Assembly: GCF_963921235.1 (NCBI RefSeq)
Contig: NC_086097.1
Location: 31,684,001 to 31,748,000, forward strand
Direction of reading: 5' to 3'
Origin: Mobula hypostoma
Taxonomy: Eukaryota
Length of the DNA: 64,000 nucleotides
Shown here: one piece after another, positions 1,251-62,787 of the stretch
Numbering within the stretch: position 1 is the stretch's first letter
Layout: the number at the start of each line of letters is the position of its first letter
The notes under the pieces: model-generated
Told to the model about the DNA's origin: nothing
Databases searched by the model: none
What the model saw: the letters and a program-made list of their open reading frames with translations, nothing else
Position numbers and translations under genes: made by a program

Positions 1251-1409
1251 GTTTACTCCCCCCCATGGATACTTCATGAGTTCCTGCAGTGTTCCTGCAG
1301 AAAATGCAAGAAAATACAAAGGCAAAAAATCCCATGTACAAAAATCATTAATGACACTTTTTATGAGGTAAATTGTGGAATACTATCACTGCAAACAGTG
1401 AACAGGTGA

Positions 1410-31724: not shown

Positions 31725-31876
31725 GTGAGTATGGAGACAGCCTCAGATGGGAGGCAGGGGACACCATTTAATCCTCTAGCCTGTTACCGGGGTCCAGAGG
31801 AAAGATGGACCTCACCCTGGACTGTGTGGGCCAAATGAACATTGCTTATACAGGCAACGTGGAGCATCAGGACATA

Positions 31877-32684: not shown

Positions 32685-35600
32685 GATTAGAAACAGGAGC
32701 CCTCCATGGAGCCTTTCAGATCCATTCAATCATTCACATTTATGTATTTATTTATCCACATGTACATTGAAGCATCCAGTGAAATGTCGTTTGTGTTAAC
32801 AACCGACACAACCTAAGGGTGTGCCGAGGTTAGTCCGCATGGGTCGCCGCACATTCTGGAGCTAACAAAGCATACCCACGATGTTCAGAACAACACAGGC
32901 AGCGAGAGCACCAGCAACAGTAAAACAAGCCCCCTTTCCCACCCCTCCCACCCACCCACAAACACGGTTTTATCAGAATCAGGATCAGAGGTCTATTATC
33001 ACTGACATGTGTTGTGAACTTTGTTTTGTGGCCATAGTAACAGTCCAATATGTTATGAGTATTACAAGTTACAATAAGAAATAAACAAGTAGTGCAATGA
33101 GAGAGCAGAATAGTGAGGCAGTGTTCATGGACCATGCAGACATCTGATGGCAGACGGGAAGAAGCTGTTCCTAAAACATTGAGTGTTGACCTTCAGGCTC
33201 CTGGACATCCTCCCTGATGGTAGTAATGAGAAGAGGTGATTCAGGAACAACTTCTTCTTCTCTGCCATTTGATTCCTAAATGGATATTGAACCCATGAAC
33301 ACTACCTCACTTTTTAAAATATATACTATTTCTGTTTTTTGCATGATTTTTAATCTATTCAATTTATGTATACTGTAATTAATTTATTAATTTATTATTA
33401 TTATTATTTTTCCTATATTATGTATTGCTTTGAACTGCTGCTGCTAGGTTAACAAATTTCAGGACACGTGCTGGTGATAATAAACCTGATTCTGATTCTG
33501 ATCCTGTCCTGGATGAGGGTGTTCATGCTGGATGCCACCTTCTTGCGGAAACAGCCTCCCATCAGCTCCCACCAATCCCTCTAAGAGACCTTTGTATTTC
33601 AGGAAGCTCGTCTCATAGTTCTCTAACCTGCAGTGAGTATGGGCACCTCCTCAATTTCTCCTGATAGGATGGGTCAGGAATTAGTGTCACAAATCCACAC
33701 AGTACTGACTCCAAGTTTATTATATCCTTCTCCTGGGAGACGGACCAAAACTTCATTTATTAGTCCAGCTAGGATCTTGTTGGATGCCGTAGCAATTTTT
33801 CTTTGCTCGGTACATATTTCTCAGCAATAAAGACCAACAAATTTTACTTTTTAAATAGCTGTTTAGTTTCTATGTCTTCTGAACCAGCACTCCCAGATTC
33901 CTCTGATCAACTACAGTCATCAATTCCTCATTGTTAATGTCATTCGTGTTCCTGTCAGATATGTTTTATTTACAGAGAGCAGTGGGAGTGCAGCACATTC
34001 TGCCCAGGGTGGTGGTAGAGGCAGATACATTAGGGACAAGTAAGAGACTCTTAGGCACATGAATGATAGCGAAATGGAAGGATCCGTGGGAGGAAAGCGT
34101 TAGACTGAGAGTAGGTTAAAAGGCCAGCACAATATTGTGGGCCAAAGGAGCTGTACTATGCTGTAATGTTTTATGTTCTATGTTCTATTTTCCCTCTGGC
34201 ACTTCATCATAGACACAGAGCTACAGGCCCTTCAGCCCCACTCATCAATGCTGACCAAGTTACCTGTGTGAGCTAGTCCCATTTGCCTGCATTTGGCCCA
34301 TATTCCCCTAAACCTTTCCTATCTGTGTAGCTGTCTAAATGCCCTTTCAATGTCATACTGCCCTTCACAGCTACTTCTGGCATTTCAGTCCATCTGTGTG
34401 AAATAGTTGCCCCTCAGTTCCCCTTGAAATCTGACCCCTCTCACTTCAATCCTTAAGGTTTGGACTCCTCATGCTGGGGAAAAGACTGTGGCTATTCACC
34501 TTATTTATGCCCCTCATGATTTTACATACCGCGAGAAGGCCAGCTCAGCCTCTTTCACTCCAGAGAAAACCATGATCACAGCCATGATCACAGTGAATGG
34601 CGGTGCTGGCTTGAAGGGCCCAATGGCCTACTCCTGCACCTATTGTCTGTTGTCTAAAACTGTCCCAGCTTATCAGCCTCCCCTCATAAACAAGCCCTCC
34701 AGCCTCAGTAACATCCTCATAAATCTTTGTTTTTCACTCTTTCCGGTTTAATGTCATTCTTCCTATAGCCGGGTGAGCAGAACTGCACACTGCACTCCAG
34801 GTGTGACCTTAGACATCTTGTACAACTGTAACGTGACATTCTATCTTCCTGTATGTACACCGCTCACTCTCCTGCCACCTCCAACTCCCCCAGCAAGCCT
34901 GGTGACAGTAACGCAGATCTTTCGTCCAGATCATTAACATAAATTGTTAACAGCTGAGAACTCTGTATCGATCCCTGCGACAACCCATTTGTGACAGTCT
35001 GCCAGTCTGAAAATAACCCGATTAACTTGCAAAGGTTGATTGGTGGAGGCTGTTTGCAAGTAAAGGGATGTCTGGCAAGTGGGAAGCTTTTCAAAAGGGA
35101 GATAAGAAGAGTTCAGGGCCAGCGTGTTCCTGTCAGAGTGAAGAGCAAGGCCGACAGGATTAGGGACTCTTGGGTGACAAGGGATATTTCGGCTCTGGTT
35201 AGGAAAAATAATAGATTAAAAATTAGCTTTATTTGTTACATGTACCTTGAAAGGTACAGTGAAATGCGTCGTTTGCATCAATGCTCAGCACGGTACAAGG
35301 ATGCGCAGGGGCAGCCTGAACGTTTCACTGCAGTTCAAACACCACATAGCATGCCCACAACTCAGTAACCCAGAGATCTTGGAAAGATGAGAGGAAGCCA
35401 GATCTCCAAGCGGATACTCGCAAGGTCACGGGGAAAATGTGCAGATTCCTTATAGACAGCGGCAGGAACTGAGTTGCATTATCAGGTCACCAGTGCTGTA
35501 ATAGCGTTATGCTAACCGCTACACTACCACCCCGTCCTCATTACTTGGGACATTTTGATGCTCCAAGATGCTTGATCTCACACATGTCTGTATTTAGTTC

Positions 35601-35864
35601 CATCTTCACCCATTTTCCCAGCTGATCCATGCCCTGCAGCATCTTGAGACAACTTTCTTTGCTATCTGCTACTCCACTAGCAAATTTACTAATCTTGCCG
35701 CATACATTCATAGAAAATAGAATGCAATTCATTTATATATCTGACAATCCCCATGGTATGCCACTTAATTCTGACTTCCAGTCAGAACATTACTTTTGAC
35801 CAATATTTTCTGCCTCCTATCACCAAGTCGTGAATGCATTTAGAACTCTGAAGCCGATTTTCAA

Positions 35865-36710
35865 AGTTCAGAGATCAAAGTATGTACACTATATACAACC
35901 TTGAGATTCGTCTCCTTATAGGCAGCCACAACACCAAGAACCCCAATAGAACCTATTAAAGAGAAGTCTATCAAACACTCAATGTGCAAAAGTAAAAGCA
36001 AATTGTACAAACAATAAAAGTAAGCAAATAACATTCAGATCTGAAGTTGACGAAAGTGAGTCCACTGCCAAGAAGCCAGTCACAGCCGATCCGTTAGTTA
36101 CAGGCCACAGCCTCAGTTTGGGGTAGAGATGAGTGAGGCCTGCAGAGCAGAGAGCCAAACATCAGCCTCTGGCCCCGACACCCTGACCTTTTCAATTTGG
36201 CCCGGTGCTTAAATTGACCAAACAGCATGTCGTCCCTTTGCTCTCTGACCCGGGCCCTGCTGCTTCGATGTGCTCTTGGGCTCTGGACCCCTCACCTCAA
36301 CTCAGACCGTACCCGACCTTTCAAACATGGCCCGGAGCTTAAATCGGTCAGACATTGCCTTGTTCCTTGCTCTCAAGCCCAGGCCCCACCGCCTCAGCTC
36401 CATCTCGCCTCGGTTTTGCCGCTTCAAGTGCATTCCAGCAACGGCTATACGTTGGTCTCCTTCTCCACTCTTTGTCCCGGGCCACGCCATCTCAATTCGG
36501 CCTGTACATGCCACGCCGCGACCGTCCTGCACTTTTGGGACTTCAGTTCCCACCACAAAAATGCTAGGTCACCCAGATGGTTCCAAAGCTCAACTCCGAA
36601 AGGGAAGTACTAGGCTGTTGATTGCAGTGGTCTTCTTCCAGAAAAAAGGTGTGATCAATAAAGTAGTTGGTAGCTTTGTCATCGCTGTACTTTGCCAGTG
36701 CCGTCCTAAA
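35865..36710 (-). mobile_element. Non-autonomous LINE-derived repeat (same 3' end as 1410-2142)
   Basis: Shared 3' terminal sequence; CpG-rich 5' half; no credible ORF. Confidence 0.5.
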
Positions 36711-37655
36711 CCTTCCTGTGCTTTAATCAATCCTTTATCCCCTGTGAGAGCTTGTACTATGCAACAGCCTGTAATCTACAAGAGTCACATTCATTAGTTA
36801 CACCTAATCTTCTCTGCTCATCGCATCCTCAGGAAACTGCTTGTTTTTAAAAATAAGTTTATTTAGAGATACAGCACAGTAACAGGATCTTCCAGCCCAA
36901 AGAGCCCTCACCACTCAGCCTCACCCATGTGACCAATTAACCTACTAACCCTGATGTCTTTGGAATGTGGGAGGAAACCAGAGCACAGGGAAGAGACCCA
37001 AACAGTCACCGGAAGAACGTATGCAGTCAGCGGTGGGAATCGAACCCCAGTCACTGGCACTGTAACACCAGTGCACTAACTGGTACACTACTGTGCTTCC
37101 CTGCCCCCCCCCCGCCACCAACACTTTTATCAATCTCAAACCTCCCTTCGTAAAATATGTTGACGTTGCATAATCCTGTTACCACATCCTCAATAATGGA
37201 TTCCAGCTTTTGGCCAAAAACAGATGTCTGGATAACTGCTCTATAGCATTTCTTCTCTCCCTTTCTAGATCACAGTTTTTAATTTACTACTTTCAAACCT
37301 ATAGGGACCCTTCCAGATCTAGGAAATAAAGACAGGCATTTTCTCAGCAGCCACCCCTTCTAGAAAGTGCAGGCTGCAAATCCATAACAGAGGTAAGTAG
37401 GAATTTTTTTTTAGCCAGAGAGTAGTATATCTGTGGAAGGCTCTGCCACAGTCTGAGGTGGAGGCTAAGTCTGTGGGTAGACTGTATTTAAAGTGGAAGA
37501 TGATAGTTTCCTGATCAGTCAGGGCATCAAAGGATATGGTGAGAAGGCAGGTGTATGGGGTTTAGTGGGATGCAGGATCAGCCATGATGGAATAGTGCAG
37601 CAGGCCTGATGGGCTGAATGGCCTAATTCTGCTCATATGCCTTATGGTCTTATGG

Positions 37656-38180
37656 TTAAAGATTCGACAAGTTCCAAGTACCCTACCACCCTCAGAGTTC
37701 AGGAATGGTAGAAAGGGTGAACCGAGCAATCAAGAAGGCCTTATGCAAAACTATAACTTGTGTATTACCAGGAATCCTGATGAGATTACGAGCAACCCCA
37801 AACCACAGGCTGGGTCTCAACCTGTACAAATTATTGATGGGGCAAACAATGCGACTCCCTTATGGGGAAATTACGGGTTGTGGTGATCCTGGGGCTTATG
37901 GGGATAGAATGAAGGACCTTTGTAACCAACTGAAAGTGCTGGAGGACCAAGCACAACATCAGCAGCACATTGCTGATCAGAGAGAGGCTGAGAGAAAGGG
38001 GATAGTCCTCTCACAGCCCGGTGACCAAGTCATGGTGAGGGTGCTGCCTGAAAGGGCAGGGTTTGCTCCCAGATAGATAGGAGCACAGATGGTACTTTTA
38101 ACTAGTGACACTGTGTCTGTCTGTGTGCAGACTCGGTGAGGCAGCCAGTGGAAACACTGGACTCAGGTGAAACTGTACGA
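37656..38180 (+). pseudogene. pol: Endogenous retrovirus integrase remnant (end of core and C-terminal domain)
   Basis: PYHPQSSGMVERVNRAIKKALCK...LMRLRATP...PGDQVMVRVL...FAPR*IGAQMVLLTSDT...WKHWTQVK. Confidence 0.85.
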
Positions 38181-38831
38181 CTCACCACCTTGTTGCTCCC
38201 CCAGACAGAGCGGGGGATCAAGTGTACCCAGTAACCGGGTAATTACAGAGAACCTAAGAGATGAACACCAGCTGGCCACATCAGACCTGAACACTGTATA
38301 TGGAAACACTCCCACAGCAAACACAAAGGCAGTCACCCCCAGCGTGAATGGGGAGTGATACAAGTGAGCTAGCTCCTTTCAGTGGCTGGGGCCAGTGATT
38401 GACTGGACAGTTTGGTTGGGGTGCCACCGAGGAGAGGTCCTTGCAGTCATTCAAATGGGGAGCACCCCAACCCCTTCCTGTACATCGATGAGAGGGCCTG
38501 TGAGCTTGATGCACTTACCTTGCTGGTGCCCCTGGGAAGAAAGAGTTTTAGCACCAGAGAATGAAGGTGTGGAGACAAGGTATGTGATTAAGCTACGATC
38601 GGCCTACAGAGGAAGAGCCAACAGGCATACAAATGAAGCTGCATTTCTAAAGGTTGTTGTTCAAATTTCTGGAACAATCTCTCTGCTTAGCATTTTGTAG
38701 GTAGCTATGAGGAATGATAGGATAGATGTACATAGAGTAATTGGGGGGGGGGAATTCTGCTGGCCTGTTTGAGTAGATCCTCCCTAAGCTTGGCTTTTCC
38801 TGTTACAAATTTATTTTTGTCCAAGAGGGCC

Positions 38832-39240
38832 AAGAGGAGGGACTGTCAGAGCGATTTTGGGTTCAGCCATCAAACTCAAATCTGAATATACATTGTAGAT
38901 TTAATTTAAAATGCAGCTCTGAACAATAGGTTCCTAAAAGCCTTGAATCACAGACCAGATAATGCTGATTAAAATTAATTTAGATGTCTGTGGTGTGGGT
39001 ATGAATTGGAAGGTATGAAGTTTGTGTACAGTACCAAAGAAAGAATTGTGGATGCATTGTAAATATGGAATTGTCATTTGATGTTTAACACATAAAATAT
39101 CAGGTAGCACGGGGCCAGCCAGAACTCTTCCCTTTCCCCAAAGGGACTCCATATGATGCCTGCTGTATCTTGTTTTGATGAGTAAAGAGGCTGTTTTTTT
39201 TATCAACTGGTACTTTCCTACAGAGACTTCATTCACACAA
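38832..39240 (+). mobile_element. Putative ERV polypurine tract and 3' LTR
   Basis: AAGAGGAGGGA (38832-38842), then TGTCAGA at 38844; AGTAAA 39181-39186; ends ...TTCACACA where CR1 sequence begins; no partner LTR in the window. Confidence 0.55.
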
Positions 39241-39244
39241 CAAG

Positions 39245-40520
39245 ACCCTATGTTATTGAGAGAGACAAGAGAAGAGATTGCTCGGGCCTTGACCAATACC
39301 TTGGTGTCCTCTCCAACCACAGGCAGGATCTCAGATGACTGGCAAATAGCTAATGTTCCATTATTCAAGAAGTGAACCAGGGATAATCCTGGAAACCTTG
39401 GACAGGTGAGTCTCACATCAGTGGTAAGGAAGTTACTAGAGAGAATTCTCAGAGATAGGATTTATGAGCATTTGGAAAACCATGGGTCATTAGGGAGAAC
39501 CAGCATGTATTTGTATGGGGCAAGTTGTGTCTTACTGACTTGACTGCTTTTTGACTAGGTGATGAGAGTGATTGACGAAGGCAGAGCTATGAGAGTGACT
39601 GATGAAGATAGAGTGGTGCATGGATTTTCGTAAGGTGTTTGACCCTTGTGAGGCTCATCCAGAAGATTAAGATGTATGGGATCCATGGTGAATTGGCAGT
39701 TTATATTCAGAACTGGTCTGCTCATTGAAAACAGAGGGCTGTGGTTGAAAGGATTTATTCTAGCTGGAGGTCTTTGATTAGTGGTGTCCTGCGGGCAACT
39801 GTACTTGGACCTCTGCTGTTTTTGATAAACTGTAGCTAAATTACCCTGATGAAAGTGTAGATGAGTGGGTTAGTAAGTTTCCAGATGATACGAAGATTGA
39901 TGAAGTTGTGGATAGCATAGGTGACTGATAGAGAATACAGCGGGATATACATTATTTGCAGGTATGGGCAGAGAAATGACAGTTGGAGTTTAACATGGCT
40001 AAATGTAAAGTGTAGGAAAAATGCAAAGATCCATAGCAGTGATCTATATCTCTATATCTCAAATAGCAGAGGTCCCAATATGGATCCCTGCAGAACACCC
40101 CAAGGCACATCCATCCATCTGGGATGTCCCATTGATCACTACCCTCTGACTTCTGTGGACATGCCAATTCTGAATCCAATTAAACAACTCATCATAGGTC
40201 CCACACATCTTAACCTTCTGGGTGAGCCTCCTATGAAGGGCCTCATCAAATGCCTTTCTAAAATCCACATAAACAACATATACATCTCTACCATCTTCAC
40301 TCTCTACCTTTATCACCTCCTCAAAAAAATCAATCCAAAGTTAGTAAGGTACAACTTGCCCCACACAAAGCCATGCTGACTGTCCCTAATTAGGCCATAG
40401 TTTTCCAAATATTTGTCAATCCTATCTCTAAGAATGCTTTCCAGCAACCTGCCTACCACTGATGTGAGACTCAATGATGTATGGTTTCCAGGGTTATCCC
40501 TATCCCCAGACTTGAACAAT
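39245..40520. mobile_element. Two degraded CR1 RT fragments in opposite orientation (plus ~39245-40015, minus ~40050-40520)
   Basis: LLRETREEIARAL...DWQIANVPLFKK on plus; SLTSVVGRLLESILRDRI...QHGFV and YVDFRKAFD on minus. Confidence 0.85.
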
Positions 40521-40857
40521 GAAAAAACTTTCTTGTGGCTAGAAGAAGTTTTAAAATAAAGTTGGACAAGTACGTGGATTGGAAAGATTTACAAGGTTAT
40601 GGGTCAAATGCTGGTAAAAGGGACTATCATGGATGGGGCATCTTGGTCTGCATGGACCAGTTGGGCTGAATGGCTTGTTTCCCTGTTGAAAGATTCTAGG
40701 ACTCTACGAAGAAGGAAGGGACTGAAAGAAAATGAACACAATGAAGCAAAAACAAACTGACGACAAAAAACATAGTTTCAATATTGTTAATGTCATTTCC
40801 CATTCACAAGTGTAAAGGGGAATGAAACAATTATTATTTTGGATCCATTGCAGTGCA

Positions 40858-40859
<2 letters not shown>

Positions 40860-40903
<44 letters not shown>
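40860..40903. repeat. (CA)n microsatellite
   Basis: Direct reading. Confidence 0.98.
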
Positions 40904-40905
<2 letters not shown>

Positions 40906-43900
40906 AAGATAAAGAACACAATAATAAACAAACAGAAAATAACTATAAATACACAAGATAGAATATATATGTAAATTGATTGTATGCCCATTAAGTGATG
41001 CTAGCACAGGAGTGTCTGTATATAAGATTATTCTGACAGTAAATGATAAAGGAGTAGGGGTGTGGTGGGATGGGTTAGTAGGTGGAGGTATTGATCAGCC
41101 TTACTGCTTGGGGAAAGTCACTACTTTGAGTCTGGTGGTCCTGGTGTGGATGCTTTGCAGCCCCCTCCCTGATGGGAGTGGAACAAACAGTCCACGAGCG
41201 GAGCAACACACACAAAATGCAGGAGGAACTCAGCAGGCCAGGCAGCATCTATGGAGAAGAGTGAAGAGTTGACGTTTTGAGCTGAGACCATCAGGACTGG
41301 AGGGAAAAAGATGAGGAGTCAGAGTAAGAAGGTGGGATCATTCATGATGATGTTGGTCTTCATCTGGCACCTTTCTGTGTGCATGTCCTTGATGGTGGGT
41401 AGGCTGGTGCCAGTGATGCGTTGGGCAGTTTTGAGCACCCGCTGTAGAGCCTTCCTGTTCGCTGCAGTGCAGTTTCTGTGCCATGCATCGCTGCAGCATG
41501 TTGGGATGCTCACTACTGCACGACTGTGAGTATGAATGTACATAGTCCAGCTCTCTTCAGCCTCCTCAGAAAGTAGAGGCATTGGGGAGCTTTCTCGATT
41601 GTTCAGAACGCTTTGTTGTGTGAGATGTAAGGCAACTTGAAGAGAGAATGGATAAACTAATGAGGACCGTTGAAGTCATCACAACAAATTTTCACAATTT
41701 TAAGGGATGCTAAGAAGCTAAATGGAAACACAAGAGACTGTAGGCACCGAGTCCAAATGAAAGGTCTAGACCCGAAACATTGACAAACTATTTCTCTCCA
41801 TAGGTACTGCCTGACCTGCTGAGTTCCTCCAGCTTTTTGATTGCTGCTGAGAGGTGATCGGCTGCTTGTTTGCTGTCTCATTTGCAGGGTGTGGATAGAT
41901 TTGTAGAGCACCACAGCACAGAAACAGGCCCTTCTGTCCATCTAGTCCATGCCAACCTGTTATTCTGCCAGTCCCATTGCCCACACCTGGATGACAGCCC
42001 TCCGTCCCCCTCCTATTCATGTACAGTACTTATCCAAACTTCTCTTAAATATTGCAATCGAACCCACATCCACCTCTTACTCTGGCAGGGCACTCTCACT
42101 ATCCTCTGAGTGAAGAAGTTCCTCCTCAGGTTCCCCTTAAGTATTTCACCTTTCACCTTCAACCTATGACCTCAAGTTGTAGTCTCACCCAACCCTGAAA
42201 ACGCCTGCTTGCATTTACCCTGTGCCTACCCCTCATAATCACTAGGATGTTGCTAGTAATGCCAACAAGTATTGTCCATCAATACTGAAGTACAGAAGTG
42301 CTTGGTGGGTTGAAAGTGACGTATACTGTGTGTAGGTCAAACAGGGTAATGAAAAAAGACTTCTTTCCCTGAAGAATCAGAGAAACAGATGTATTTTTAT
42401 GATTATGTGGACATTTCATGGCTACTGAGACAAATTTAAATTCCAGATTTATTTAATTATTTAAATTTAAATTTCCCAGCTGTTTTGGTGGGATTTGAAC
42501 TTGTTTCAGGTTCATTGGTCCACAACTCCAACTGTTGGTGAAAAATACTACTGTATATCATCTACCATATCACCCTGCGGAGATGTAAGTGGAAATAAGG
42601 CAATAACAGTCATATGGAACAATGACTCTGTGTCAGTAGTTCCATTGATTCATAGATAATCAGACAAACTATCTAGGCAGAACATACTATTTCGTGGAGA
42701 GAGGGACTTTCTCTCTGTGTTTGATTTGAGCCTTGAGTTTGGGGTCAATATCCAGGGATGGTTGTTGAAGCCTGATGGTGGAGCCTGGAGGATGGAGGCC
42801 CAGAAGCCTGTGCTGGAGTTGGAGGGCAATCTGTGCGAGTGAGGGGGTTGGTGGGAGGGAGGAAAGGGACTTGTTCTGCTGTTGTTGTTGCTTGTTGTGT
42901 TCTGTGTTCTGCTGAGTATTGTGGCCATGTTAAGTTGGTACCAGAATGTGTGGTGATACCTGCAGGCTGTCCCCAGCACACCCTTGGGCTCGGGTGCGTT
43001 GGTTGTCTAGACCCAAACAATGCATTTCACTGTATGTTTCAATGTACACATGACAAATAAACTTGGATCTTGATAACCGGTGGGCTGCCCCCAGCACATC
43101 CCTCGGTACTTTGATTGCTAGCACAAACAGCACACACAGAAATCAGCTTCAGTGGGCAGGAGTAAAGAGCCCATGTTTTGGGCTGAAACCCCTCAGGACT
43201 GGAAAGGATGGGGAAAGAAGCCAGGTGAGGGAGCATGTTTCGATGTACATGTGATAAATAAATCTGAATCGGATGGTACCCGTCTGTTCCAGGGCCATAC
43301 ATTCCCATTGAACTGTATCCCATTAGTATTGCACTCAGTTCACTTACTTTGACAGTGGTGAAATTGCTAGCCTTGTTCACAAGGCACTGGGTTTCACAGG
43401 ATGTGATTCTGTTCGGGAATCCTAGCATCGAGGTCAGGAATTGTGATTTCCATCCAACCCTCTTGGCAGATGTGGAGTGTCAACTTCATGCCTGAAGTGT
43501 TAGTGCATGTTTATTTACTGCTAAGTAGAATGAGATGCTGAGGCAATGCTGGAACAACTGTCTTGCCAAGTCAAGAGTGTGATAGAATGCTCTCCGTACT
43601 CGAGTGCAGTGCCAACTCTCAAGAAGTTTGATGATATCCAGAGCAGAGCAGCCAGTTTGACTGACAGCACGGAAGCTGGCACTTCAGTACATCTCATCCA
43701 TGCCAACCGAGCCATCTACCAGAGCTAGTCCAATAAGCTGATTAGAAAGGCTGGCTCTGTTATCGGAGTCAAACTGGATACACTGGAGGCTGAGGTGGAA
43801 CAGAGAGCCCTCTGGAAAATCCTGGCAATTCTGGACAATGTTTCTCACCCTCTGTATGCCACTTGGGCTAAACTGAGGAGCATTTTCAGTAATAGACTAC

Positions 43901-45029
43901 GGCAACTGTGCTGCTCTGAAGAGTGCGATATGGGGTTGTTTTTACCCTCGGCCATTAGGCTCTACAATGAGCCAACCTGTAGCCGGGGAAGTGATGACCT
44001 CCTCCTGTTAGACTGTTATTAAGCTCTGTTTAAGCACTGTTTAGCTCTGTTTACCACACCCTGTTATCGAGGACACCCTGTGCAATACTGTGCAGTAATA
44101 CCATCACTTACCATCCGGATGGTGTGAATGTGTACCCATTACCGTATAATTACTGTACATTAATTCTTGCACTACCGTCTTATCAGTGTGAACTTGTAAA
44201 CCTTGTAAATCTTTAAATTGTAAACCATGTACATCTTATTTTTAAGGTAACTTACTTTTTTATTCTTTCTTACTTCTCTTCTAATATTTGTATATCTGTG
44301 CACTTGCAGTGCTACTGTGACACTGTAATTTCCTTTGGGATCAATAAAGTATCTTTCAATCTATCTATCGAGTCCCATTTTCCTGCCTTTTTCTTGTATC
44401 TCTTTTAAAATTTTCCAGCCATTTACCTGTCCAAATGTCTTTTGAATGTTGTAATTGTACCCACCTCTACCAATTTGTCTGGCATCTCATATCCATATAT
44501 TGTACACATCAACCTCTATGTAGGAAAAAGTTGCCCCCTCAGGTCCATTTTATATCTTTCCCACTCACCTTAAACCTATCCTCCCTTGTTTTGGACTCCC
44601 CTCCCTTGTGACCATCCACTTTATCAATGCCTCTCATAATTTTATAAAGACCTATAAGGTCACCCCTCAGCTCTACCCATCAAAAAGTCTCAGCCTATCC
44701 AACCTCAGTAAGATCATAAAACTGTAAGACATTTTTTGTTGCATGTTGTGACAACACAACACAACAAATTCCTAATACACGTAAATGTTAATGGTGAATT
44801 AAGTTGATCCCAGATCCTTATTCTTCATTCTGTTATTAATTTTCCTTGTACTAGCACAATGACTGATGTGATGAAGTGATCTGTATAGGTGGCATGTTAA
44901 ACATGTTTTTCACTGTACCTTGGTATATGTGACAATAATAAACTAATTTACCAATAGTCAACCCAGCAACAATCCCTTGGGAACAGGAATCATCGCAGGC
45001 CTCCACTACCACCCTTCATGTTATGTTGA

Positions 45030-47440
45030 TTTGTACAAGACTACAGTGAGTCTACAGTTGGAGTATTGTGTTCAGTTTTGGTTACTCTGCTAGAGGAAAG
45101 ATACCATGAAGCTGGAAAGAGAGAACATAATTTTAATTATTGGAGGAATGTAGGGGGACGTCAGAGGTAGGTTTTTTTTCCACAAAGAGGGTGGTAGGTG
45201 TGTAGAACACACTATAAGGTGTGGTGGTAGTGTTAGATACATGAGAGTAAATAAGACCAGCACTTGGATGAAAGTAAAATGGAGGGCTATGTAGAAGGGA
45301 AGGGTAGATTGATCTTAGAGTAGGTTAAAGGACAGAAGCAACATTGTGGGACGAACGGCCTGTACTGTGCTGCACTCTTCAATGTTCTATTTCTAAGATA
45401 GCGTACAAAGATGTTGCTGGGACTCTAGTGACTGAATTTGCAGAGAGTCTGAGGAGGTTAGTACTTTACTTTCTGAAGCAGAGGAGACCGAGGAGTGATT
45501 TCATGAAGGTGTATAAAATCATAAGGGCCACTGATAGGGTGAGTGTGTTCTGTCCCAGAGAATGGGAATCCACAGCTAGAGGGCATGGGTCATAGAGAAG
45601 TACAGCACAGGAACAAGCCCTTCGGCCCAACTAGTCCATGCTGAAAACCATTTAAGCTGCCTACTGCCATTGGCCTGAACTGGGACCATAGCCTTCCAAA
45701 CCCCTACCATCCATGTAACTATCCAAACTTCTCTTAAATGTTGAAATAGAGTTTGAACGTACCACTTGTGCTGGCAGCTCATTGCACACACAGGGGAAAG
45801 ATTTAATAGGAACCTGAGGAACAACATTTTCAAATAGACTCAGTACATAGAGTGAGCCAGAGGAAGTGGTTGAGGCAGGTGCAATAACAACATTTCAAAG
45901 GCACTTGGACGTTAATACAGATAGGAAAGGTGTAGGGGAATATGGGCCAAACACAGGTAAATGCGACTACCTCAGACAGGCACCATGCTCGGCATAAACC
46001 ATTTGAGCAGAAGACCAGTTTCCATTGACTTGCAATGATGAGAAGTGATCTGGTAGGGGTGTACAAGATGAGAAGAGGCATAGATAGAGTGGACAGACAG
46101 AGATTATTTCCCAGAGCGTAAATGGCTAAGATGAGGGGGTGTAAAATTTTAAGGTGATTGGAGGAAAGTATAGGTAGGTCTTTTTAACACAGAGAGTGGT
46201 GGTGCATGGAATGCTCTGCCAGAGGTGGTGGGACAGGCAGATACATTGGGCACACTTAAGAAATTCTTCGATAGCCAAATAGGGTATTGGAAAATAGTGG
46301 GCTGTGTGGGAGGGAAAGGTTAGATTGATCTTAGAGTAGGTTAAAGTCTTGGCACAACATTAATTAGTTTCTGAGGTTACAAAACCTCCCAGACCCACCA
46401 TATCTTCAAGGACAAAAGGCACATGGGATCATCATCAGCTGAAGATTGCTCTCCAAGTCACACACACCCTGAATCCTATATGTCCAATCCTTCTTTGTCT
46501 GAACCTTGGTACCTTTTTTCCAACTGCACTTTATCTAGAAGGATGACAGTGGTTCGAGAATATGACTCACCCTCATCTTCTATGAACTGAACCCCTATAT
46601 TCGGTTCTGGTCACCCACAATGTTGTGCTGACCCTTTAACCTACTCTGAGATCAATGTAATCCTTCCCTTCTACATAGCCTCCATTTTCTTATCATCCAT
46701 GTGCCTACCTAAGAATTTCTTAAATGCCACTGATGTATCTGCCTCTACTACCATACCAGGCAACTTGTTTTACATTCCCACCACACTCTGTGTAAAAAAA
46801 AAATTACCTCTGACAACTCCCCCCATGCTTTCCTCTAATCACCTTAAAATTATCACCTTCATATCCTATGAACTGTCTATTCTATCTTCTATGAACCAAA
46901 CTTCTTTCAGTTCTGATTGCCACATTATAGGAAGGATGTGGAAGCTATAGAAAGGGTGCAGAGGAGATCTACCAGGATACTACTTGGATTAGAGGGCATG
47001 TCTTATGAGGAAAGTTTGACTGAGTAACTGCTTTTCTGTTTGGAGTGAAGGAGAATGGGAAGTGACCCGATAGAGGTGTACAAGATGATAGGAGGCACAG
47101 ACTGAGTGGATAGCCAGAGACTTTTTCCCAGGGTGGAAATGGCTAAGAGAAGAGGGCATAATTTTAAGGTGATTGTAGGAAAGAATAGGGGGATGTCAGA
47201 GGTAAGTTTTTTTTTACACAGAGAGTGGTGAATGTGTGGAACGTATTGCTAAGAATGATGGTAGAGGCAGCTACGTTAAGGACACTTAAAAGACTCGTAG
47301 ATTGGCACATAGATGATAGAATTATGTGGGAGAGAAGCGTTAGGTTGGTCTGAGAGTAGATTAGAGTGTTGGCACACTGTGTGTCGGAGGGCTGGTACTG
47401 AGCTGTACTGTTTTATATTCTATATTCCATGTTCTATGTC
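45030..47440. mobile_element. Cluster of degraded CR1 3' fragments, mostly plus strand
   Basis: Repeated CR1 C-terminal and 3'-UTR motifs, e.g. GGAGTATTGTGTTCAGTT, TTTTTACACAGAGAGTGGTG, TTCTATGT tails. Confidence 0.8.
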
Positions 47441-48280
47441 CCCCCAGATTGTAGCAATTCTCTAACACACTGAGGGCAATTTACAGCAACCAATTAATGA
47501 CCAACCTGCGCTGTGCTGTTCAGTGTTTCATGTTCTCAGGGACAATTAGGGATGGACCATAAATGCTGGGCTCTCTTCTCCAGTGATCCCAACATCCGGA
47601 CAACAATTGTATTAACCGCTTTCCCAGACTTCCTACCATGGCAGTGTCATGGAGTAAACACCCAATGCACTCCACCATAAGCAGAGGATTTCACTTCCCT
47701 GAGTGGAAACTGATCATAATCCTCGGCCAGAAGGTGTCTTTTAGTGGAGGGAACTTAACGGTTGGAGGAATATCTGAGTAAACAGCTGTATCCATTGGAG
47801 CTGCTATGCCTGCCAGCATCCAGCTGGGTTGTGGGTCATAAAATTAAACGTTTTAAGTGATTCAGTGATGATTTCAGTAAGTGTGGAGTAAATGAAGAGC
47901 CTATATCGAATGTGTTGTCATTTGATACTCCATGTTCTGGCTCAGCTGAAATGGAATAACAGCGAGTATTAATTTTTCAGAGTGCTCCTACTGATAATCC
48001 AACTTAAATAGTTTTCTTTATCTCTCAGCAACCCGGACTCGGAGGTCAGAGCTTCGCGTTCAGATTCAGATTGATGTATCATTGAAACATACAGTGAACT
48101 GCGTCGTCTAACTACCAACACAACCTAGCGATGTGCTGGGGGCAGCCCTTGAGTGTCGCCACACATACTGGTGCCAACATAGCGTGCCCACCGTGCTCGG
48201 CGGAACAACATCCTACACAACGAAACAGAACACAACAAGTAACAAAACAGCCACAGCAAAACAAGCCCCTTTCCTCCCTC

Positions 48281-48567
<287 letters not shown>

Positions 48568-49141
48568 CCTCCAATCCCAAGACAGGCTGTCTTTAGCCTC
48601 CAGAGGACTCACGGATTTGCAGACTTTGGCCTTGACTTTCCCAGCAGACTCAGAGATCTCAGTAGCATTCTGTTGTTCTCCACCGCTCTACGGGGTCTAA
48701 TCATGTACTTACCCTGAACTGCCAGGGTGGTGGTAGAGGCTGATGCAATCTGTTCATACTAAATTATATTTCTAACCCATTCTAACCCATAAAGGTCTTG
48801 TTAACTGTTGGTACGTTGCTAACTGCCCTGGAATCTGAGTATTTGATGGCTCTGGGCTTGTACTCACTGGCGTTTAGAAGAATGGTGGTGGGGGGGGGTT
48901 CTGCACTGAAACCTACCGAACATTGAACGGCCCAGAAAGAGTGGACATGGAGAGGATGTTTCCAATAGTGGGAGAGTCTAGCACCAGAGGGCACAGCCTC
49001 AGAATACAAGGACATCCCTTTACAACAGAGATAGAAACACAGAAAGCCTACAGCACAATACAGGCCCTTCGGCCCACAGAGTTGTGCTGAACATGTCCCT
49101 ACCTTAGAAATTACTAGGCTTACCTATAGCTCTCTATTTTA

Positions 49142-49413
49142 AGCACAAAATAATCTGCGGATGCTGTAAAAGATCAAAGCAACACTTTCAGTACGCTGGA
49201 TGAACTCAGCAGGTCGGGTAGCATCAGTCAGAAACGATGAGTCGACGTTTCGGGCCGGAACCCTTCGTCAGGACTGAAGAATGAAATCAAATTCAAATCC
49301 TTCCCTATCTTTCATTCTTCAGTCCTGACGCAGGGTTCCGGCCCGAAACGTCAACTCATTGTTTCTGACTGATGCTGCCCGACCTGCTGAGTTCATCCAG
49401 CGTACTGAAAGTG
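49142..49413. mobile_element. Palindromic Penelope-derived insertion with 15-bp TSD
   Basis: 105-bp inverted arms 49182-49286 and 49310-49414; TSD TAGCTCTCTATTTTA (49127-49141)/TAGCTTTCTATTTTA (49414-49428) inside a CR1 3' UTR. Confidence 0.85.
49240..49275 (-). ncRNA. Minimal type I hammerhead ribozyme motif
   Basis: Minus strand reads AGTC-CTGACGA-A-GGG TTCCGG CCC-GAAA-CGTC-GACT: stem I AGTC/GACT, core CUGANGA and GAAA, GUC site, helix III reduced to palindromic ACGT. Confidence 0.75.
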
Positions 49414-49762
49414 TAGCTTTCTATTTTACCAAGCTCCATGTACCTATCTAAAAGTCTCTTAAAAGACCCTGTCGTATCCGCCTCCACCACCGTTGCTGGC
49501 AGCCCATGATCTGAGGCTGAGGAGGGATTTCCTTATCCAGAGGGTGATGAATCTGTGGAATTGATTGCCACAGATGGCTTTGGAGGCTGAATCATTGGGT
49601 CTATTCATAAAGTGGAGGTGGAATAGGTTCTTGATTAGTAAGGGCGTCAAAGGTCACAGGGAGAAGGCAGGAGAATGGGATTGAGAGGGATAATAAATCG
49701 GTCATGGAGAACACTCAGGGTCTGCTCCATTCGACATGGTCTTATGGAGTGTTATGTAATGT

Positions 49763-49993
49763 ATCCTCACACAAACAAGCTACCCCAGGAATTAATCAAA
49801 TGCCCCTTTGCAAATATATCCACCCTTAGGTAGGTGACCAATCCTCACACAAACAAGCTACCCCAGGAATTAATCAAATGCCCCTTTGCAAATATATCCA
49901 CCCTTAGGTAGGTGACCAATCCTCACACAAACAAGCTACCCCAGGAATTAATCAAATGCCCCTTTGCAAATATATCCACCCTTAGGTAGGTGA
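49763..49993. repeat. 78-bp tandem repeat, about 3 identical copies
   Basis: ATCCTCACACAAACAAGC...GGTAGGTGACCA starts at 49763, 49841 and 49919. Confidence 0.97.
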
Positions 49994-52009
49994 TCTCCAG
50001 AGTTCCAAATAAATACTCTTCTGCTGCCCTCCTCCTCACACAGTTATCTAGCACAGAAACAGTTGTTACAACCCAGCTCATCCTTGCCAGCCAAGGGGTC
50101 TTGCATTAAAAACAAATCTATCATTTGCCTTCCTGATGCTTGTACATCCAAACAATCAGGGACTCCTTTACAAAACCTCATGTAATTTTCAAGCGTACTC
50201 ATTCATTTTAGTTATAGGGAAATGTTAAATAGGTTAGGATTTTATTCCCTGGAGCATAGGAGAATGAGGAGATATTTGATAGAGGTATACAAATTTATGA
50301 GAGGTTTAGATAGGCTATGATTTAGGTCGATGGAACCAGGCCGAATGATAGTTTAGCCCAGACTAGAAGGGCCAAATGGCCTTTTTTGTGCTGTAATGCT
50401 CTACGACTCTTCAGATTTTAAAGTTTCTTTGCTGGAGAATGAGGAAGAACTTCAACTGCTCTGGGATATAATACCTGAGAGGGTTGTGCAATTGTGTACA
50501 GCTCTGGTTGCCTCATTACAGAAAGGACCTGGAGGGTTTGGTTTATCAGGATGCTGCCTGGATTAGAGAGCATTAACTATAAGTAGAGGCTGGATAAAAT
50601 TGCATTGTTTTCTCTGGAGTGTCAGGGGGATCACCTGATAGAAGTTTAGAAAATTATGAGAGGCATGGGTAGAATCTCTTTCCTAGAGTAGAAATGTCAA
50701 ATACTTGAGGGCATGCATTTAAGATAAGAGGGGGAAAAGTTTAAAGGAGATGTGTGGAGCAAGTATTTTGCACAGAGTTGTGGGTGCCAGGACTGTGCTG
50801 CCAGGGGTGGAGGTAGAGGCAGATACAGTAGAGGCATTTAGGAGGCTGTTAGACACATGGTAGAACATAGATCAGTACAGTACAGACCCTTCAACCCATG
50901 ATGTTGTGCCAACCCTTTAACCTGTTCCAAGATCAATGAGGGACTATGGATCATGTATTTAGTTTATTTCAGCAGGGTGTCTGGCTCAGGAATCAGATTC
51001 TGATTGATCATGAACCGAAGGGCCTGATCCAAGTGTAGTACTGTCCTACATTCTGATCTCTGTAAGCAGATCCTAACAGAACTTGTAGTGGGAAATGGGA
51101 TAATTTGTTGAGCAGTGGTAATTTACAATGAAGCAGGAGAAACGTGCTCGTAGTTGGAGAACTCTTTCAATAAGACAGCACGGAAACACGGGGCCAAGTG
51201 GCATCTGTCCACACTGTGAGATTGCACAACTTTATTTCCAATTTAATTCAAGATTCTGTGCCAAACCATCCAAGGAATTGTGTGTATTCCCTGTGGATGC
51301 ACACCGGATCTCTGTACTTGAAGCAGATAGAACATAGGTCAGTACAGTACAGTACGTGCCAACCCCTTAACCTATTCCAAGATCAATCTAACCCTCCATT
51401 TTTCTTTCATCCACATGCCTGTCTAAGAGTCTCTTAAACATTATATCTGCCTCTACCACCTCTTCCTGGCACCACACTCCATACACCCAACTATCTCTGA
51501 GTACAAAACTTCATTCTGACATCCCCCCTATACTTTCCTCCAATCCCCTTAAAATTATGCCCCCTTGTATTAGCCATTTCCACCCTGGGGAGAAATCTAT
51601 GCTTTTTCTGGTCTTACATATTTCTATCACGTCCCTTTTATCCTCCTTCTCTCCAAGGAAAAGCCCTAGCTCACTCAATCATCTCACAAGTATGCCTTCT
51701 AATCCAGGCCGCATACTGGAAAATCTCCTCTGCACCTTCTCCAAAGCTGTCACACCCTTAATGGAATAGTTGATGGGAATGTGGAGAAATTAAAATCTGA
51801 GTAATGCAGAACTCGTGTAATTCAGGGGTTTCCCAATCTTTTTTCATGCCATGAACCAATGCCATAAAGCAAGGGGTGTGTGGACTCCAGAGTGGGAACC
51901 CCTGTTGTAACTCCAGAGTGGGAACCCCTGTTGTAAATGAATGTTAGATTCAGATTCAGATGTATTTATTTATCTATCACCTGTGCATCAAAAACATACA
52001 GTGAAATGT

Positions 52010-52432
52010 GTTTCTCCCCCCCTTCACCTTTCCCCATCCCTTTTTCCCTCTCCCACTAATCTCCTTGCCTGCCCATTGCCTCCCTCTGGTGCTCCTTCCC
52101 CATCTCCCCCCGCCTTTCCTTCTTCCATGGCCTTTTGTCCTCTCCTATTAGATTCTCTCTTCTCCAGCCCTGTATCTCTTTCACCAATAAACTTCCCAGC
52201 TCTTTACTTCATCCCTCCTCCTTCAGGTTTCACCCATCAGCTCGTGTTTCTCTCTCTCCTCCCTCCGTCTTTTAAACCTGCTCCTCGTCTTTTTTATCTC
52301 CAGTCCTGCTGAAGGGTCTCGGTCCGAAACGTCGACTGTACTTTTTTCCATAGATGCTGCCTGGTTCTGCTGAGTTCCTCCAGCATTTTGTGTGTGTTGC
52401 TTGGGTTTCCGCCATCTGCAGATTTTCTCTTG
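52010..52432 (+). mobile_element. Penelope-derived element with hammerhead-like motif at 52302-52337
   Basis: Pyrimidine tract, then AGTC-CTGCTGA-AGGGTCTCGGTCC-GAAA-CGTC-GACT and the shared terminal segment; a similar copy lies at ~53935-54310. Confidence 0.75.
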
Positions 52433-54381
52433 TTAGTGAAACATGTTTGCTTCAACAGCCAACACACCCAAGGATGTGCTGGAGGTAGTCCACAAGTGTC
52501 ACCACACATTCCAGCGCCAACATAGCACGCCCACAATGTTCAGCAGCAACAACTACAACAGCAGCAAAACAAGACCCTTTCTCTCCCTACCACTCATTAC
52601 CCACATCCACAACACACAGGCAGGCCTCCAACACCAGGACAGGCCACCTCCAGGCCTTTTTTTCATTAAATGCAATCGTGAACAATAGCCAGATCAGAAA
52701 TGCTGATCAAATCAACTAGTTCCCAAAGAGAACTCTGATAGGCCAATCAGATGGTTCACTGCTACTCAGCAACAGAACACAAAAAAATCATATGTACAAT
52801 TAAGAAACATTAAAAAATAGTAGAAATACTGGAGTCATGCTCTTTGTCCTGGACTCTCTGACTTGCAGACATTGGGCCTCTAACCTCCAAGCTCCTGTTT
52901 CCATGCTGTATCACTCTCTATAGAGTTTTAGAGTCACAGTGCACTACAGCACAGAAACAGGCTCTCCAACCCATCTAGTCTACTAAACTGTTAGTCTGCC
53001 CAGTCCCATCGACCCACGCCTGACCGTATCCCTCATGTCCACGTACCTATCCAAACTTGCCTTAACTGTTACAATCGAACCTGCACCCACCACTTCTGCT
53101 GGCAGCTTGTTCCACAATCACACCTCCTGAGTGAAGAGGTCCCCCTTAGATATTTCACCTTTTACCCTAAACCCATGGCCTCCAGTTCTAGTCTCACCCA
53201 ACCTCCATGGAAAAAGCCTCCTAGGTCTCAATAATTATTTCATTTCAACTTCAACACAGCTTGCGAACTGCATCTCTGCCTAGAAGTGTTGGAATGGTTA
53301 CAGCTGCTCATTTGCTGGCTAGCTTAGGTTCTAATAAATCGGGCACAGTTAAGTTGACTGGTTGTGTATAGGCACTGTGCATGATTGTAGGTGTCCACTG
53401 TAGCCGAGCCATGGAATGAGCTGTGTTTTTTTTAAATTATTTGTTACACGTGCTAAGGGATATTTGGGCTCTGGCTAGGAAAAAAGAATTTACAGATTAG
53501 CTTTATTTGACGCTCATGCATTGAAACATCAAGGCATGCGGTGAGATGCATCATTTGCGACAGTGACCAGCACAGTCTGAGGATGTGCCAAGGGCAGCCC
53601 ACAAGTGTCGCCAACATAACATGCCCGCAGCTTACTAACCCTAACTCCAGGTTAGCTTTATTTGTCGCATGTCTATCAAACAAACTGTGAAAGGTGTCAT
53701 TCGCATCAAATCAATCTGCAAGGATTGTGCTGGAGGCAGCCCACAAGTATAACCATGCTTCCAGCGCCACCTTAGCATGCTCTTAAATTACTAACCCTGA
53801 ATGTACGTCCTGGCAATGTGGGAGGAAACTGAAGCACCTGGAGGGAACTCACGTGGTCATGGAGCGAATGTACGAACTCCTTACAGACCAATGGCATTCA
53901 GTGATTGAAGGAGCTGTAAGACGATTGCACTAATTGCTCCTCCACCCAACCTACCTCCTTGCCTTTACTCCTGGTCCAATGTCCTCTCCTATTAGGTTCC
54001 TTCTGAAACCCTCTGCTTCTTCCACCTATCCTCTCCAGTTTCTTACATCTTTCACTTCCGTCCTTCCTCTCCTGACCCACGCACCTTCTCCCTCACCTGG
54101 TCTCACCTATCACCTGCCAGCTTGTACTCCTTCCTTTTCCCCCACCTTCTTATTCTGACTTCTGCCCCCTTTCTTTCCAATCCTGATGAAGGGTCTCAGC
54201 CTGAATCGTTGACCATTCATCCCCTCTGTAGATGTTGCCTGATCTGCTGAGTTCCTCCAGTGTTTTGTGTGTGTTGCTCCGGATTTCCTGCATCTGTAGA
54301 ATCTTTGATGTCCCCCCCCCCCCCCCGCATTCTGAGTTCTTCTCCCCCGCTGAGTCGCTATCTGATATGCTTTGGGCCCAG

Positions 54382-61414: not shown

Positions 61415-61569
61415 GTGAGTATCCGGGGCAGTGAACCCCCCCCCCGCCAAGTATCAGAAGTTTTAGAGGGAAAACAGGAGGGCAAAAAGAGGGGATGGGA
61501 TAGATTGGGCAGGCAGGTTAAAAGTTCATCCAAAGAGGTTCTTCAGTTATGTTATCAACACAAGAGCCC

Positions 61570-62480
61570 CTGCAGATGCTGAAAGTCCAAAGCAAAACAC
61601 ACAAAATGCTGGAGGCACTCAGCAGATCAGACAACATCTATGGAGGGGAATAAAGAGTTTTTTGGGCCATGACCCTTCATCAGGACCGGAAGGAAGGGGT
61701 CAGAATCCAGAATAAGAAGATGGGGGGAGAGAAGGAGAACAAGCTGGCAGATGATACCTGAGACCAGGTGAATGGAAAGGTGAGTGGGTGGGGGAAGGGG
61801 GATGAACTGAGAAGCTGGGAAGAGATGGGTGGTAGAGATAAGGGGCTGAAGAAGAAGGGATCTGATAAGAGAGGAGAGTAGGCATGGGAGAAAAAGAAGG
61901 AAGAGGAGGACTGGCGGGGGGAAGGGGTGATGTGAAATTGAGGAGAAGAAAAGGGGTAAGAGGAGAGCCAGGAAGGGGAATGGAAAAAGGGAGAAGGGAA
62001 AGGGGAAAGAAATTACTGGAAGTTGGAGAAATCGATGTTCATGCCATCAGGTTGGAGGCTACGCAGGAGAAACATGAGGTGTTGCTGCTCCAACCTGATA
62101 GTGGCGTCGTTGTGGCAGTAGAGAAAGCCAGGCAGAGAGAAAGCCAGGCACAGACATGTCAGAATAAGATGGGAAGTCAAATTGTAATGGGCAGTGGCTA
62201 CTGGGAAATCCTGTCTGTTGCAGAAGGAGTGAAAGTGCTTGACAAAGCGGTCCCCCAATCTATGTCAGGTCTCACTGGTGTAGAGGAGGTTGCACCAGTA
62301 GCACTGATACAGTAGGCATCCCTGACAGACCCACTGATGAAGTGTTGCCTCACTTGGAAGAACTGTTCTGGGCCCTGAATGTTCGTAAGAGAGGAGGTGA
62401 AGGGGCAGGTGTAGCACTTCTGCCTCTTGCAGGGATAAGTGCCAGGAAGGTGATCAGTGGGGAGGGATGCATGGACAAGA
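61570..62480 (-). mobile_element. Penelope-like element with degraded GIY-YIG endonuclease
   Basis: PGTYPCKRQKCYTCPF...QVRQHF...YCI...CNLLYTSET*HRLGDRF...LEQQHLMFLLRSLQPDGMNIDFSNF, then pyrimidine tail and hammerhead-like remnant (~61655-61687). Confidence 0.88.
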
Positions 62481-62787
62481 ATTTCAGGATAAATTCCTCT
62501 GATATTAAATGGAACTATTGAATTATTGAACAAGGGATTCACAGGGATACTAACAACACAAGGATGACTAGAGAGGGACTAGATCCTCTCAAGGACCATC
62601 AGGGCTGCTTACGTTTAGAACTGCAGGACATGGCCAAAGACAAATATAATGTTAACATGCATTTCAAGGGGACTAGAATATAAAGGTAAGCATATAATGC
62701 TGAAACTTAATAAGACATTGTTTAGACTGCATTTAGTACATTGGAAGCAGTTTTGGGTCACTTATCTATGAAAGGATGTGCTGGTAT

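What the first reader, a model, noticed from the sequence alone, without database searches (positions are those of the whole stretch)
49127..49428. 272-bp fold-back insertion carrying two head-to-head hammerhead ribozyme motifs
Seen: two 105-bp inverted arms (4 mismatches, 23-nt spacer) flanked by a 15-bp TSD with 1 mismatch, so this entered a CR1 3' UTR as one event. Each arm holds a minimal hammerhead pointing outward. The minus copy (49240-49275) has an intact core; the plus copy (49321-49356) has CUGACGA changed to CUGACGC. Known: Penelope-like elements carry minimal hammerheads in their pseudo-LTRs and often leave inverted terminal segments. Inference: this is either a one-off template-switch product or a tiny non-autonomous ribozyme-bearing mobile unit. 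As part of the host pre-mRNA it would form a ~105-bp dsRNA, a potential ADAR or Dicer substrate.
Basis: partly seen in the sequence, partly recalled or inferred. Interest (0 to 1): 0.7.

Follow-up and report, generated by a model that had tools for sequence, protein, structure and literature searches.

The report
Penelope retroelement fold-back stub in ray
This hairpin-shaped 272-base insert in a ray intron is real but ordinary: it is two cut-short, back-to-back ends of what is most likely a Penelope-like jumping gene, likely built in a single insertion, and its two small ribozyme motifs are predicted to be masked by the hairpin.

Summary
In detail: 105-bp arms with 4 mismatches, 23-nt spacer, 15-bp duplication; an empty paralogue in the window holds the 15-mer once. 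The unit is the described insertion product of endonuclease-bearing Penelope-like elements (PLEs): a 5'-truncated terminal repeat with a 40-nt one-sided tail plus an inverted truncated copy. Twelve related copies lie in the window; one runs upstream into a Neptune/Nematis-type GIY-YIG ORF end; two others also fold back, at different points. Each arm holds sequence the other lacks, so both were likely copied from RNA, one from each nicked strand. The minus hammerhead is intact (1 descriptor hit; 0 in 200 shuffles). The plus copy, the one in the host CCDC170-like pre-mRNA, has two lesions, not one. The hairpin outweighs the ribozyme fold by about 62 kcal/mol. The target is the end of CR1 ORF2, not its 3' UTR. 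A mobile palindromic family is unlikely, but no genome was held to test it. The scan reported this pattern before, in this genome and in at least 13 genomes.

The parts
49127..49141 (+). Left copy of the 15-bp target-site duplication
   Evidence: present once in the paralogue at 612-626
49142..49181 (-). 40-nt one-sided PLE tail (3' extension), on the long arm only
   Evidence: unpaired; homologous to the 3' ends of window paralogues; matches the 30-40 bp tail described in PMC8557442
49182..49286 (-). Long arm, paired part: 5'-truncated PLE terminal repeat
49240..49275 (-). Intact minimal type I hammerhead motif, predicted cut 49244|49243, uncut in the DNA
   Evidence: descriptor hit, 0 in 200 shuffles; 33 of 36 bases equal to the majority of 10 paralogues, differences only at N7 and loop II
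49287..49297 (.). Head-to-head junction: 11 nt with a 6-mer tandem, filler or further upstream element sequence (unresolved)
   Evidence: depth near single copy at 49287-49291 in run X1; arm-plus-junction 16-mer found once in the window
49298..49309 (+). 12 nt of likely element sequence present only in the short arm
   Evidence: one contig of another locus aligns 49298-49414 with 9 differences (table 8, record 15)
49310..49413 (+). Short arm: inverted 5'-truncated copy without tail; its end matches the target at 4 of the last 5 bases
49321..49356 (+). Damaged hammerhead copy: A9 to C (49331) and G1.1 to A (49353)
   Evidence: both changes are rejection criteria in PMC3088659
49414..49428 (+). 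Right copy of the target-site duplication (one C to T change)
49031..49507 (-). Host CR1-type LINE 3' piece (ORF2 end and 3' UTR), split by the unit
   Evidence: 101/110 and 87/94 identical to the uninterrupted paralogue 533-721; tblastn to CR1 ORF2 end
48837..49706 (+). Outer, older CR1-type piece interrupted by the host CR1 piece
   Evidence: 48837-49032 and 49518-49654 are contiguous in the paralogue 56526-56210; joints
533..721 (+). Empty paralogous CR1 site (control)
61557..62482 (-). Related PLE copy with the broken C-terminal endonuclease ORF (C-X4-C-X2-C linker, GIY-YIG-like end), pyrimidine-rich 3' UTR, decayed hammerhead and tail
21436..21590 (.). Second fold-back stub (tail on one arm, turn inside the hammerhead), also in a CR1 ORF2 end
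1137..1293 (.). Third, decayed fold-back stub (17-bp perfect inverted match)
31725..54363 (+). Intron of a CCDC170-like gene that holds the unit
   Evidence: exons mapped by tblastn of P0001 and P0002, all on the plus strand

Best explanation
The unit is a target-duplication-flanked pair of truncated, head-to-head ends of what is most likely a Penelope-like retrotransposon, likely made in one insertion when the element's enzyme nicked both DNA strands 15 bases apart and copied a short stretch of its RNA from each nick. Shown: the duplication, the two arms, the one-sided 40-nt tail, kinship (66-75% identity) to a PLE terminal repeat in the window, one intact and one damaged hammerhead motif. 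Inferred: the top-strand nick after 49141 primed a 145-nt cDNA from the outer RNA start site (tail included); the bottom-strand nick at 49414 primed a cDNA of at least 116 nt from the inner start site, helped by a short primer-template match; both stopped 15 and at least 27 nt upstream of hammerhead C3 and were joined by repair. The templates were uncut RNA. The copy is dead on arrival: no ORF, and the ribozyme is predicted to be locked in a 105-bp helix in either direction of transcription. It has since decayed neutrally.
For: Duplication proven at family level: paralogue 533-721 holds the 15-mer once and contigs that skip 287 bases occur in 4 of 4 runs. 12 related loci in 64 kb; one continues into an ORF end whose third-best relative (P0010, 58% over all 83 aa) shows the linker zinc finger and IYC..C..C..YIG motif; 4 of 18 relatives scanned have a GIY-YIG Pfam match, all below the cut-off. 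2 of those 12 loci also fold back, at other points. Each arm has sequence that the other lacks (tail; 49298-49309). A contig of another locus in run X5 also starts its arm at 49181 without a tail (table 8, record 24). Junction depth in X1 about 10 against 11.7 for the unique flank, while the tail region has 56,035. Literature: inverted pLTR, one-sided 31-bp tail, 8-10-bp duplications, head-to-head layout (PMC3846280); 30-40-bp tail at one end (PMC8557442); paired min-HHRs on opposite strands 100-700 bp apart (PMC4209133); both strands cut and extended, two RT start sites bounding the tail, uncut RNA as main substrate (PMC11167929). Hairpin against ribozyme fold: 62.6 (plus) and 61.9 (minus) kcal/mol. 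Arm differences: 2 CpG transitions, 1 other transition, 1 transversion.
Against: The ORF of this subfamily itself was not seen; PLE identity passes through a paralogue only 66% identical in the arm. Direct scans of that ORF piece were blank in Pfam, gave one irrelevant weak NCBIfam hit, nothing related in the Atlas and nothing in the word-index search. Rfam has no hammerhead hit. No covariation above shuffles in 12 copies. The 12-nt short-arm extension rests on one contig. Summed contig depth is no copy number by the tool's own warning, and many joints were not counted. The 15-bp duplication is longer than the 8-10 bp in the PMC3846280 passages. PMC11167929 reports initiation at a site not homologous to the cut DNA, whereas a 4-of-5 match is seen here (short, may be chance). 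No duplication of 11 bp or more was found at the other 12 loci with my rough end points.
Confidence: 0.82

Rival explanations
1. Same PLE origin and one event, but made by one cDNA folding back on itself or by self-priming on an antisense template (the model in PMC3846280), not by priming from both nicks.
For: PMC3846280 explains head-to-head junctions by self-priming (passages). The junction has a short tandem 6-mer that could be slippage.
Against: Neither arm can be a plain copy of the other: the long arm has the tail, the short arm has 49298-49309. There is no palindrome at the junction. Would need a later deletion.
Confidence: 0.1
2. The 272-bp hairpin is a member of a small non-autonomous family that moves as a whole through a fold-back RNA, mobilised by PLE proteins.
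For: Clean duplication around the whole unit. Related sequence is very abundant in two organisms. pLTR sequences suffice for mobilisation in trans (PMC3846280). No whole genome was held to count junctions.
Against: Junction depth near single copy in X1; junction found once in the window; the other two fold-backs turn elsewhere; no A-to-G scars (0 of 4); ribozymes predicted masked; not tandem as non-LTR retrozymes are defined (10.64898/2026.07.22.740005).
Confidence: 0.06
3. Assembly artefact (fold-back chimera).
For: PLE inverted structures trouble assemblies (PMC8557442). No contig spans the whole unit in 4 runs.
Against: The arms differ at 4 sites and in length; the duplication fits an empty paralogue; X1 has about single-copy depth across 49287-49291 (X1 may be the source sample).
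Confidence: 0.02

Closest known systems
Complex insertions of EN+ Penelope-like elements: inverted pLTR, one-sided tail, TSD (PMC3846280; PMC8557442; passages read)
   Same: Head-to-head truncated terminal repeats, 40-nt tail on one arm, one duplication around the whole.
   Different: No ORF between the repeats; 15-bp duplication against 8-10 bp in the passages read; no palindrome at the junction.
[quoted passage not shown]
   Same: Short helix I, extra base between 9 and 10.1, G10.1-C11.1 pair, palindromic 15.2-16.2, no helix III; pairs on opposite strands 100-700 bp apart are reported there.
   Different: Helix II is only 3 bp (7-8 bp in the Schistosoma families). Sharks and rays are not named in the parts read; supplements not seen.
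Poseidon element of Anolis, PAc (PMC11167929; parts 1-2 of 4 read)
   Same: Both strands cut and extended, two RT start sites bounding the tail, AT-rich target, uncut template: this predicts the anatomy seen.
   Different: The kin of this unit has the CX2-5CxxC linker of Neptune/Nematis, absent in Penelope/Poseidon; that paper reports no primer-template homology.
Non-LTR retrozymes (10.64898/2026.07.22.740005; part 1 of 5 and passages)
   Same: Short, non-coding, PLE-derived, type I hammerhead; reported in one chondrichthyan.
   Different: Retrozymes are head-to-tail tandems with two motifs on one strand; this unit is head-to-head.

Membership tests
EN+ Penelope-like element insertion | Terminal repeat carrying a minimal type I hammerhead | tested here: met
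EN+ Penelope-like element insertion | Adjacent inverted 5'-truncated copy, head to head | tested here: met
EN+ Penelope-like element insertion | 30-40-bp tail on one end only | tested here: met
   49142-49181
EN+ Penelope-like element insertion | Target-site duplication (variable) | tested here: met
EN+ Penelope-like element insertion | Linked to an ORF with C-terminal GIY-YIG/CCHH endonuclease | tested here: inconclusive
   Met for a paralogue 66% identical in the arm (Pfam matches of relatives below cut-off; direct scans blank). Not seen for this subfamily.
EN+ Penelope-like element insertion | Telomerase-like RT, clade placement by RT tree | not testable with these tools
   No PLE RT among the window's ORFs of 150 aa or more; no genome held
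Neptune/Nematis clades | CX2-5CxxC linker before GIY-YIG | tested here: inconclusive
   Seen by eye in the 61-62 kb paralogue and in P0010; does not separate the two clades and is not from this subfamily
Active minimal hammerhead | Intact core and N1.1-N2.1 pair | tested here: met
   Minus copy only; the plus copy fails both
Active minimal hammerhead | Able to fold, as a same-strand dimer | tested here: not met
   One motif per strand; masked by about 62 kcal/mol; even the isolated dimer target (-13.1) is above the predicted minimum (-30.1) (secondary-structure model only)
Active minimal hammerhead | Self-cleavage | not testable with these tools
   needs an assay
Non-LTR retrozyme | Head-to-tail tandem units, each with a hammerhead | tested here: not met
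   definition
Non-autonomous palindromic mobile family | Same junction at several loci | tested here: inconclusive
   Once in the window, near single-copy depth in X1; no genome-wide count

The most novel reading that the evidence does not exclude
The 272-bp hairpin is one copy of a low-copy, non-coding PLE derivative that is transcribed and retrotransposed whole as a fold-back RNA, with its hammerheads switched off by their own antisense arms: a head-to-head counterpart of retrozymes.
Probability: 0.06. Interest if true: 0.55.

Novelty: new member of a known kind. Interest (0 to 1): 0.14.

Why it matters
Little on its own: it is one more PLE stub among 13 related loci in 64 kb. It is a tidy example, because duplication, tail, both cDNA ends and a short primer match can all be read, and these fit in vivo the two-strand, two-start-site activity shown in vitro for PAc. 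A genome-wide set of such stubs could test how PLEs make inverted ends, which is still open; one locus cannot. The predicted 105-bp intronic dsRNA is a possible editing substrate, as any inverted repeat in an intron is, with no sign here of selection or use.

Tried and rejected
No whole genome is held, so no genome-wide junction count and no orthologous empty site. A closer read-level look at the three junctions was not obtained, so presence of the insert in organisms B and C stays open; their depths at 49287-49292 are patchy and I draw nothing from them. No RNA holder listed; the one guessed-RNA run laid (X15) gave only pieces with 9 or more differences over the unit, so no locus-specific expression evidence. 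Rfam: no hammerhead. Covariation in 12 rows (10 of the 12 paralogues plus both arms): not above shuffles. Isolated motifs fold no better than shuffles (z -0.4 to -0.9). Direct domain scans of the paralogue's ORF end: blank or irrelevant. Duplication search at the other 12 loci: none of 11 bp or more, end points rough. ADAR scars: 0 of 4. Selection against sense-strand hammerheads in the host gene: rejected, 5 of 8 paralogues inside the gene span are sense and none passes the descriptor. miRNA reading of the Rfam hits: rejected, all below cut-offs. Searches for a paper on this family in sharks or rays (Penelope+hammerhead+shark; Penelope+elasmobranch+repeat; listings only) showed none; Repbase and Dfam could not be searched, so it may be catalogued there. 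No paper on the A9C change was found. Lunse et al. (PMC5785218) is not held; known only through PMC6765202 passages. Look-up of earlier findings by sequence was empty.

Full report
Observation. The arms 49182-49286 and 49310-49414 pair with four mismatches, the spacer is 23 nt, the flanking 15-mers differ at one base and the insert is 272 nt. The fold is far beyond chance (-207.8 kcal/mol, z -26.9, 0 of 200 shuffles). A descriptor for a minimal type I hammerhead, written by me after the features in PMC4209133, hit once in the window, the minus copy at 49275-49240, and never in 200 dinucleotide shuffles. Rfam gave no hammerhead hit. The plus copy has A9 to C, as reported, and also G1.1 to A at 49353, which breaks the pair beside the cut site; either change is a rejection criterion in PMC3088659 (passages).

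Target. The window holds its own control: 533-721 is an uninterrupted CR1-type copy, 101/110 and 87/94 identical to the two flanks, with the 15-mer once at 612-626. Contigs that skip exactly 287 bases occur in 4 of 4 runs laid; these are other copies of the CR1 family, not the orthologous site. The duplicated bases encode the last codons of ORF2, with the stop at 49120-49122, so the target is not the 3' UTR. This CR1 piece sits inside an older CR1 piece of the other orientation. All of it lies in a 22.6-kb intron of a plus-strand CCDC170-like gene; the best named proteins are from Mobula birostris (91% over one exon) and Hemitrygon akajei (88%), so the animal is a ray.

Family. nhmmer with one arm found 12 other loci in 64 kb; the three compared pairwise are 66-75% identical. 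Against the column majority of 10 of them, the hammerhead region agrees at 35 of 40 positions and the rest of the arm at 68 of 105 (Fisher p 0.007); within the 36-nt motif the three differences fall at N7 and loop II. This suggests the motif was kept by selection in the active parents. None of the 12 passes the descriptor and there is no covariation above shuffles, as expected of decayed copies. The copy at 61557-62482 continues upstream through a pyrimidine-rich stretch into a frameshifted ORF end with C-X4-C-X2-C and a GIY-YIG-like motif. Direct scans of this piece were blank or irrelevant. A full phmmer search gave 51 relatives; of 18 scanned, 4 have a GIY-YIG Pfam match below the cut-off, and P0010 shows the linker and the two cysteines inside GIY-YIG that PMC8557442 gives for Neptune and Nematis PLEs (passages). 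The unit's own subfamily ORF was not seen. In one search the tail region has summed depth 56,035 against 11.7 for the unique flank in X1, 192,707 against 39 in X5, and 265 against about 6.5 in X9; the tool warns that this is no copy number, so I take it only as: very abundant in organisms A and B, much less in C.

Anatomy and mechanism. The left arm has 40 more element bases (49142-49181), the one-sided tail of PLEs (PMC8557442; PMC3846280). One contig from another locus aligns to 49298-49414 and ends at 49298 (table 8, record 15), so the right arm likely has at least 12 upstream element bases that the left lacks; 49287-49297 is filler or more of the same. Each arm then holds sequence absent from the other, and neither can be a simple copy of the other. 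PMC11167929 (parts 1-2 of 4) shows in vitro that a PLE protein cuts and extends both strands, starts at two RNA sites that bound the tail, prefers AT-rich DNA and uses uncut RNA. I infer two nicks 15 bases apart, one cDNA from each, and a repair join. The primer end for the short arm matches the element at 4 of its last 5 bases (5 of 7 by the left duplication, 6 of 7 by the right), which is short and could be chance; that paper reports no such homology. Both arms run past the predicted cut site, so the templates were uncut. Self-priming, proposed in PMC3846280, is the rival.

One-off or family. The junction occurs once in the window. In X1 the depth at 49287-49291 is 38.2, of which 28.1 is one contig with other letters, leaving about 10, close to the unique flank; X1 may be the source sample, contigs drop rare variants, and many joints were not counted. 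Two of the 12 other loci fold back too, at other points. Paired min-HHRs on opposite strands 100-700 bp apart, tied to truncated PLEs, are already in PMC4209133 (parts 1-2 of 4). A genome-wide count was not possible.

Ribozyme and dsRNA. Such motifs are thought to need a same-strand partner and cleave weakly (PMC4209133; PMC6765202 passages). Here each strand has one motif, always in the second arm, behind its antisense. Forcing the hammerhead fold costs 62.6 (plus) and 61.9 (minus) kcal/mol; even alone it costs 4.3 in the intact copy (no tertiary energy modelled). The host pre-mRNA carries the damaged copy, but 5 of 8 paralogues in the gene span are also sense, so I see no purging. The pre-mRNA could form the 105-bp helix. 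There is no expression or editing evidence, and the four arm differences are two CpG transitions, one other transition and one transversion, none A-to-G. Arms 3.8% apart mean the insertion is not recent; no rate was measured.

Known and new. It works like, and on four of six tested or considered features is, an EN+ PLE insertion; the endonuclease link is indirect and the RT untested. It is not a retrozyme by the tandem definition. Two searches showed no paper on this family in sharks or rays (listings only); repeat databases and supplements were not seen. Earlier notes of this scan report the same pattern: 16 findings in at least 13 genomes by words and several in this genome. I had reached the PLE-stub reading before reading them; they are unchecked and are not counted as support. 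Verdict: real, ordinary, new member of a known kind; interest 0.14.

Noticed in passing
window 21436-21590: Second PLE fold-back stub, tail on one arm, turn inside the hammerhead, also inserted near a CR1 ORF2 end; no duplication of 11 bp or more found.
   Followed up: partly
window 1137-1293: Third, decayed fold-back stub with a 17-bp perfect inverted match.
   Followed up: partly
window 61557-62482: Longest PLE copy: broken Neptune/Nematis-type endonuclease end, 3' UTR, decayed hammerhead, tail; it abuts an exon of the CCDC170-like gene, and the P0001 model aligns into it. The copy at 4500-4879 keeps the last ORF codons too.
   Followed up: partly
window 49146-49184 in runs X1, X5, X9: The unit's subfamily is abundant in organisms A and B and scarce in C by summed contig depth, a hint of a lineage-specific burst.
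   Followed up: no
window 49419: The single difference between the two duplications makes the right copy agree with the element's own next bases; the paralogue and left copy have the other base. One case; chance not excluded.
   Followed up: partly
window 49287-49291 in run X1: One contig (depth 28) leaves the long arm with other letters near the same point, possibly another fold-back with a different junction; contig not seen.
   Followed up: no
window 54150-54340: A PLE stub ends a few tens of bases before the CCDC170-like exon near 54364-54568; its tail lies close to the splice acceptor.
   Followed up: no
window 5142-9228: Gypsy-type LTR retrotransposon with gag-, RT-, RNase H- and integrase-like frames, interrupted by stops and frameshifts.
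   Followed up: no
window 12648-14507 and 24557-26541: Long CR1-type ORF2 pieces; the first is open for 619 aa with an RT match.
   Followed up: partly
window 49763-49996: Three tandem copies of a 78-nt unit, 97-100% identical.
   Followed up: no
window 48285-48565: Long CT/CA microsatellite with repeated interruptions.
   Followed up: no
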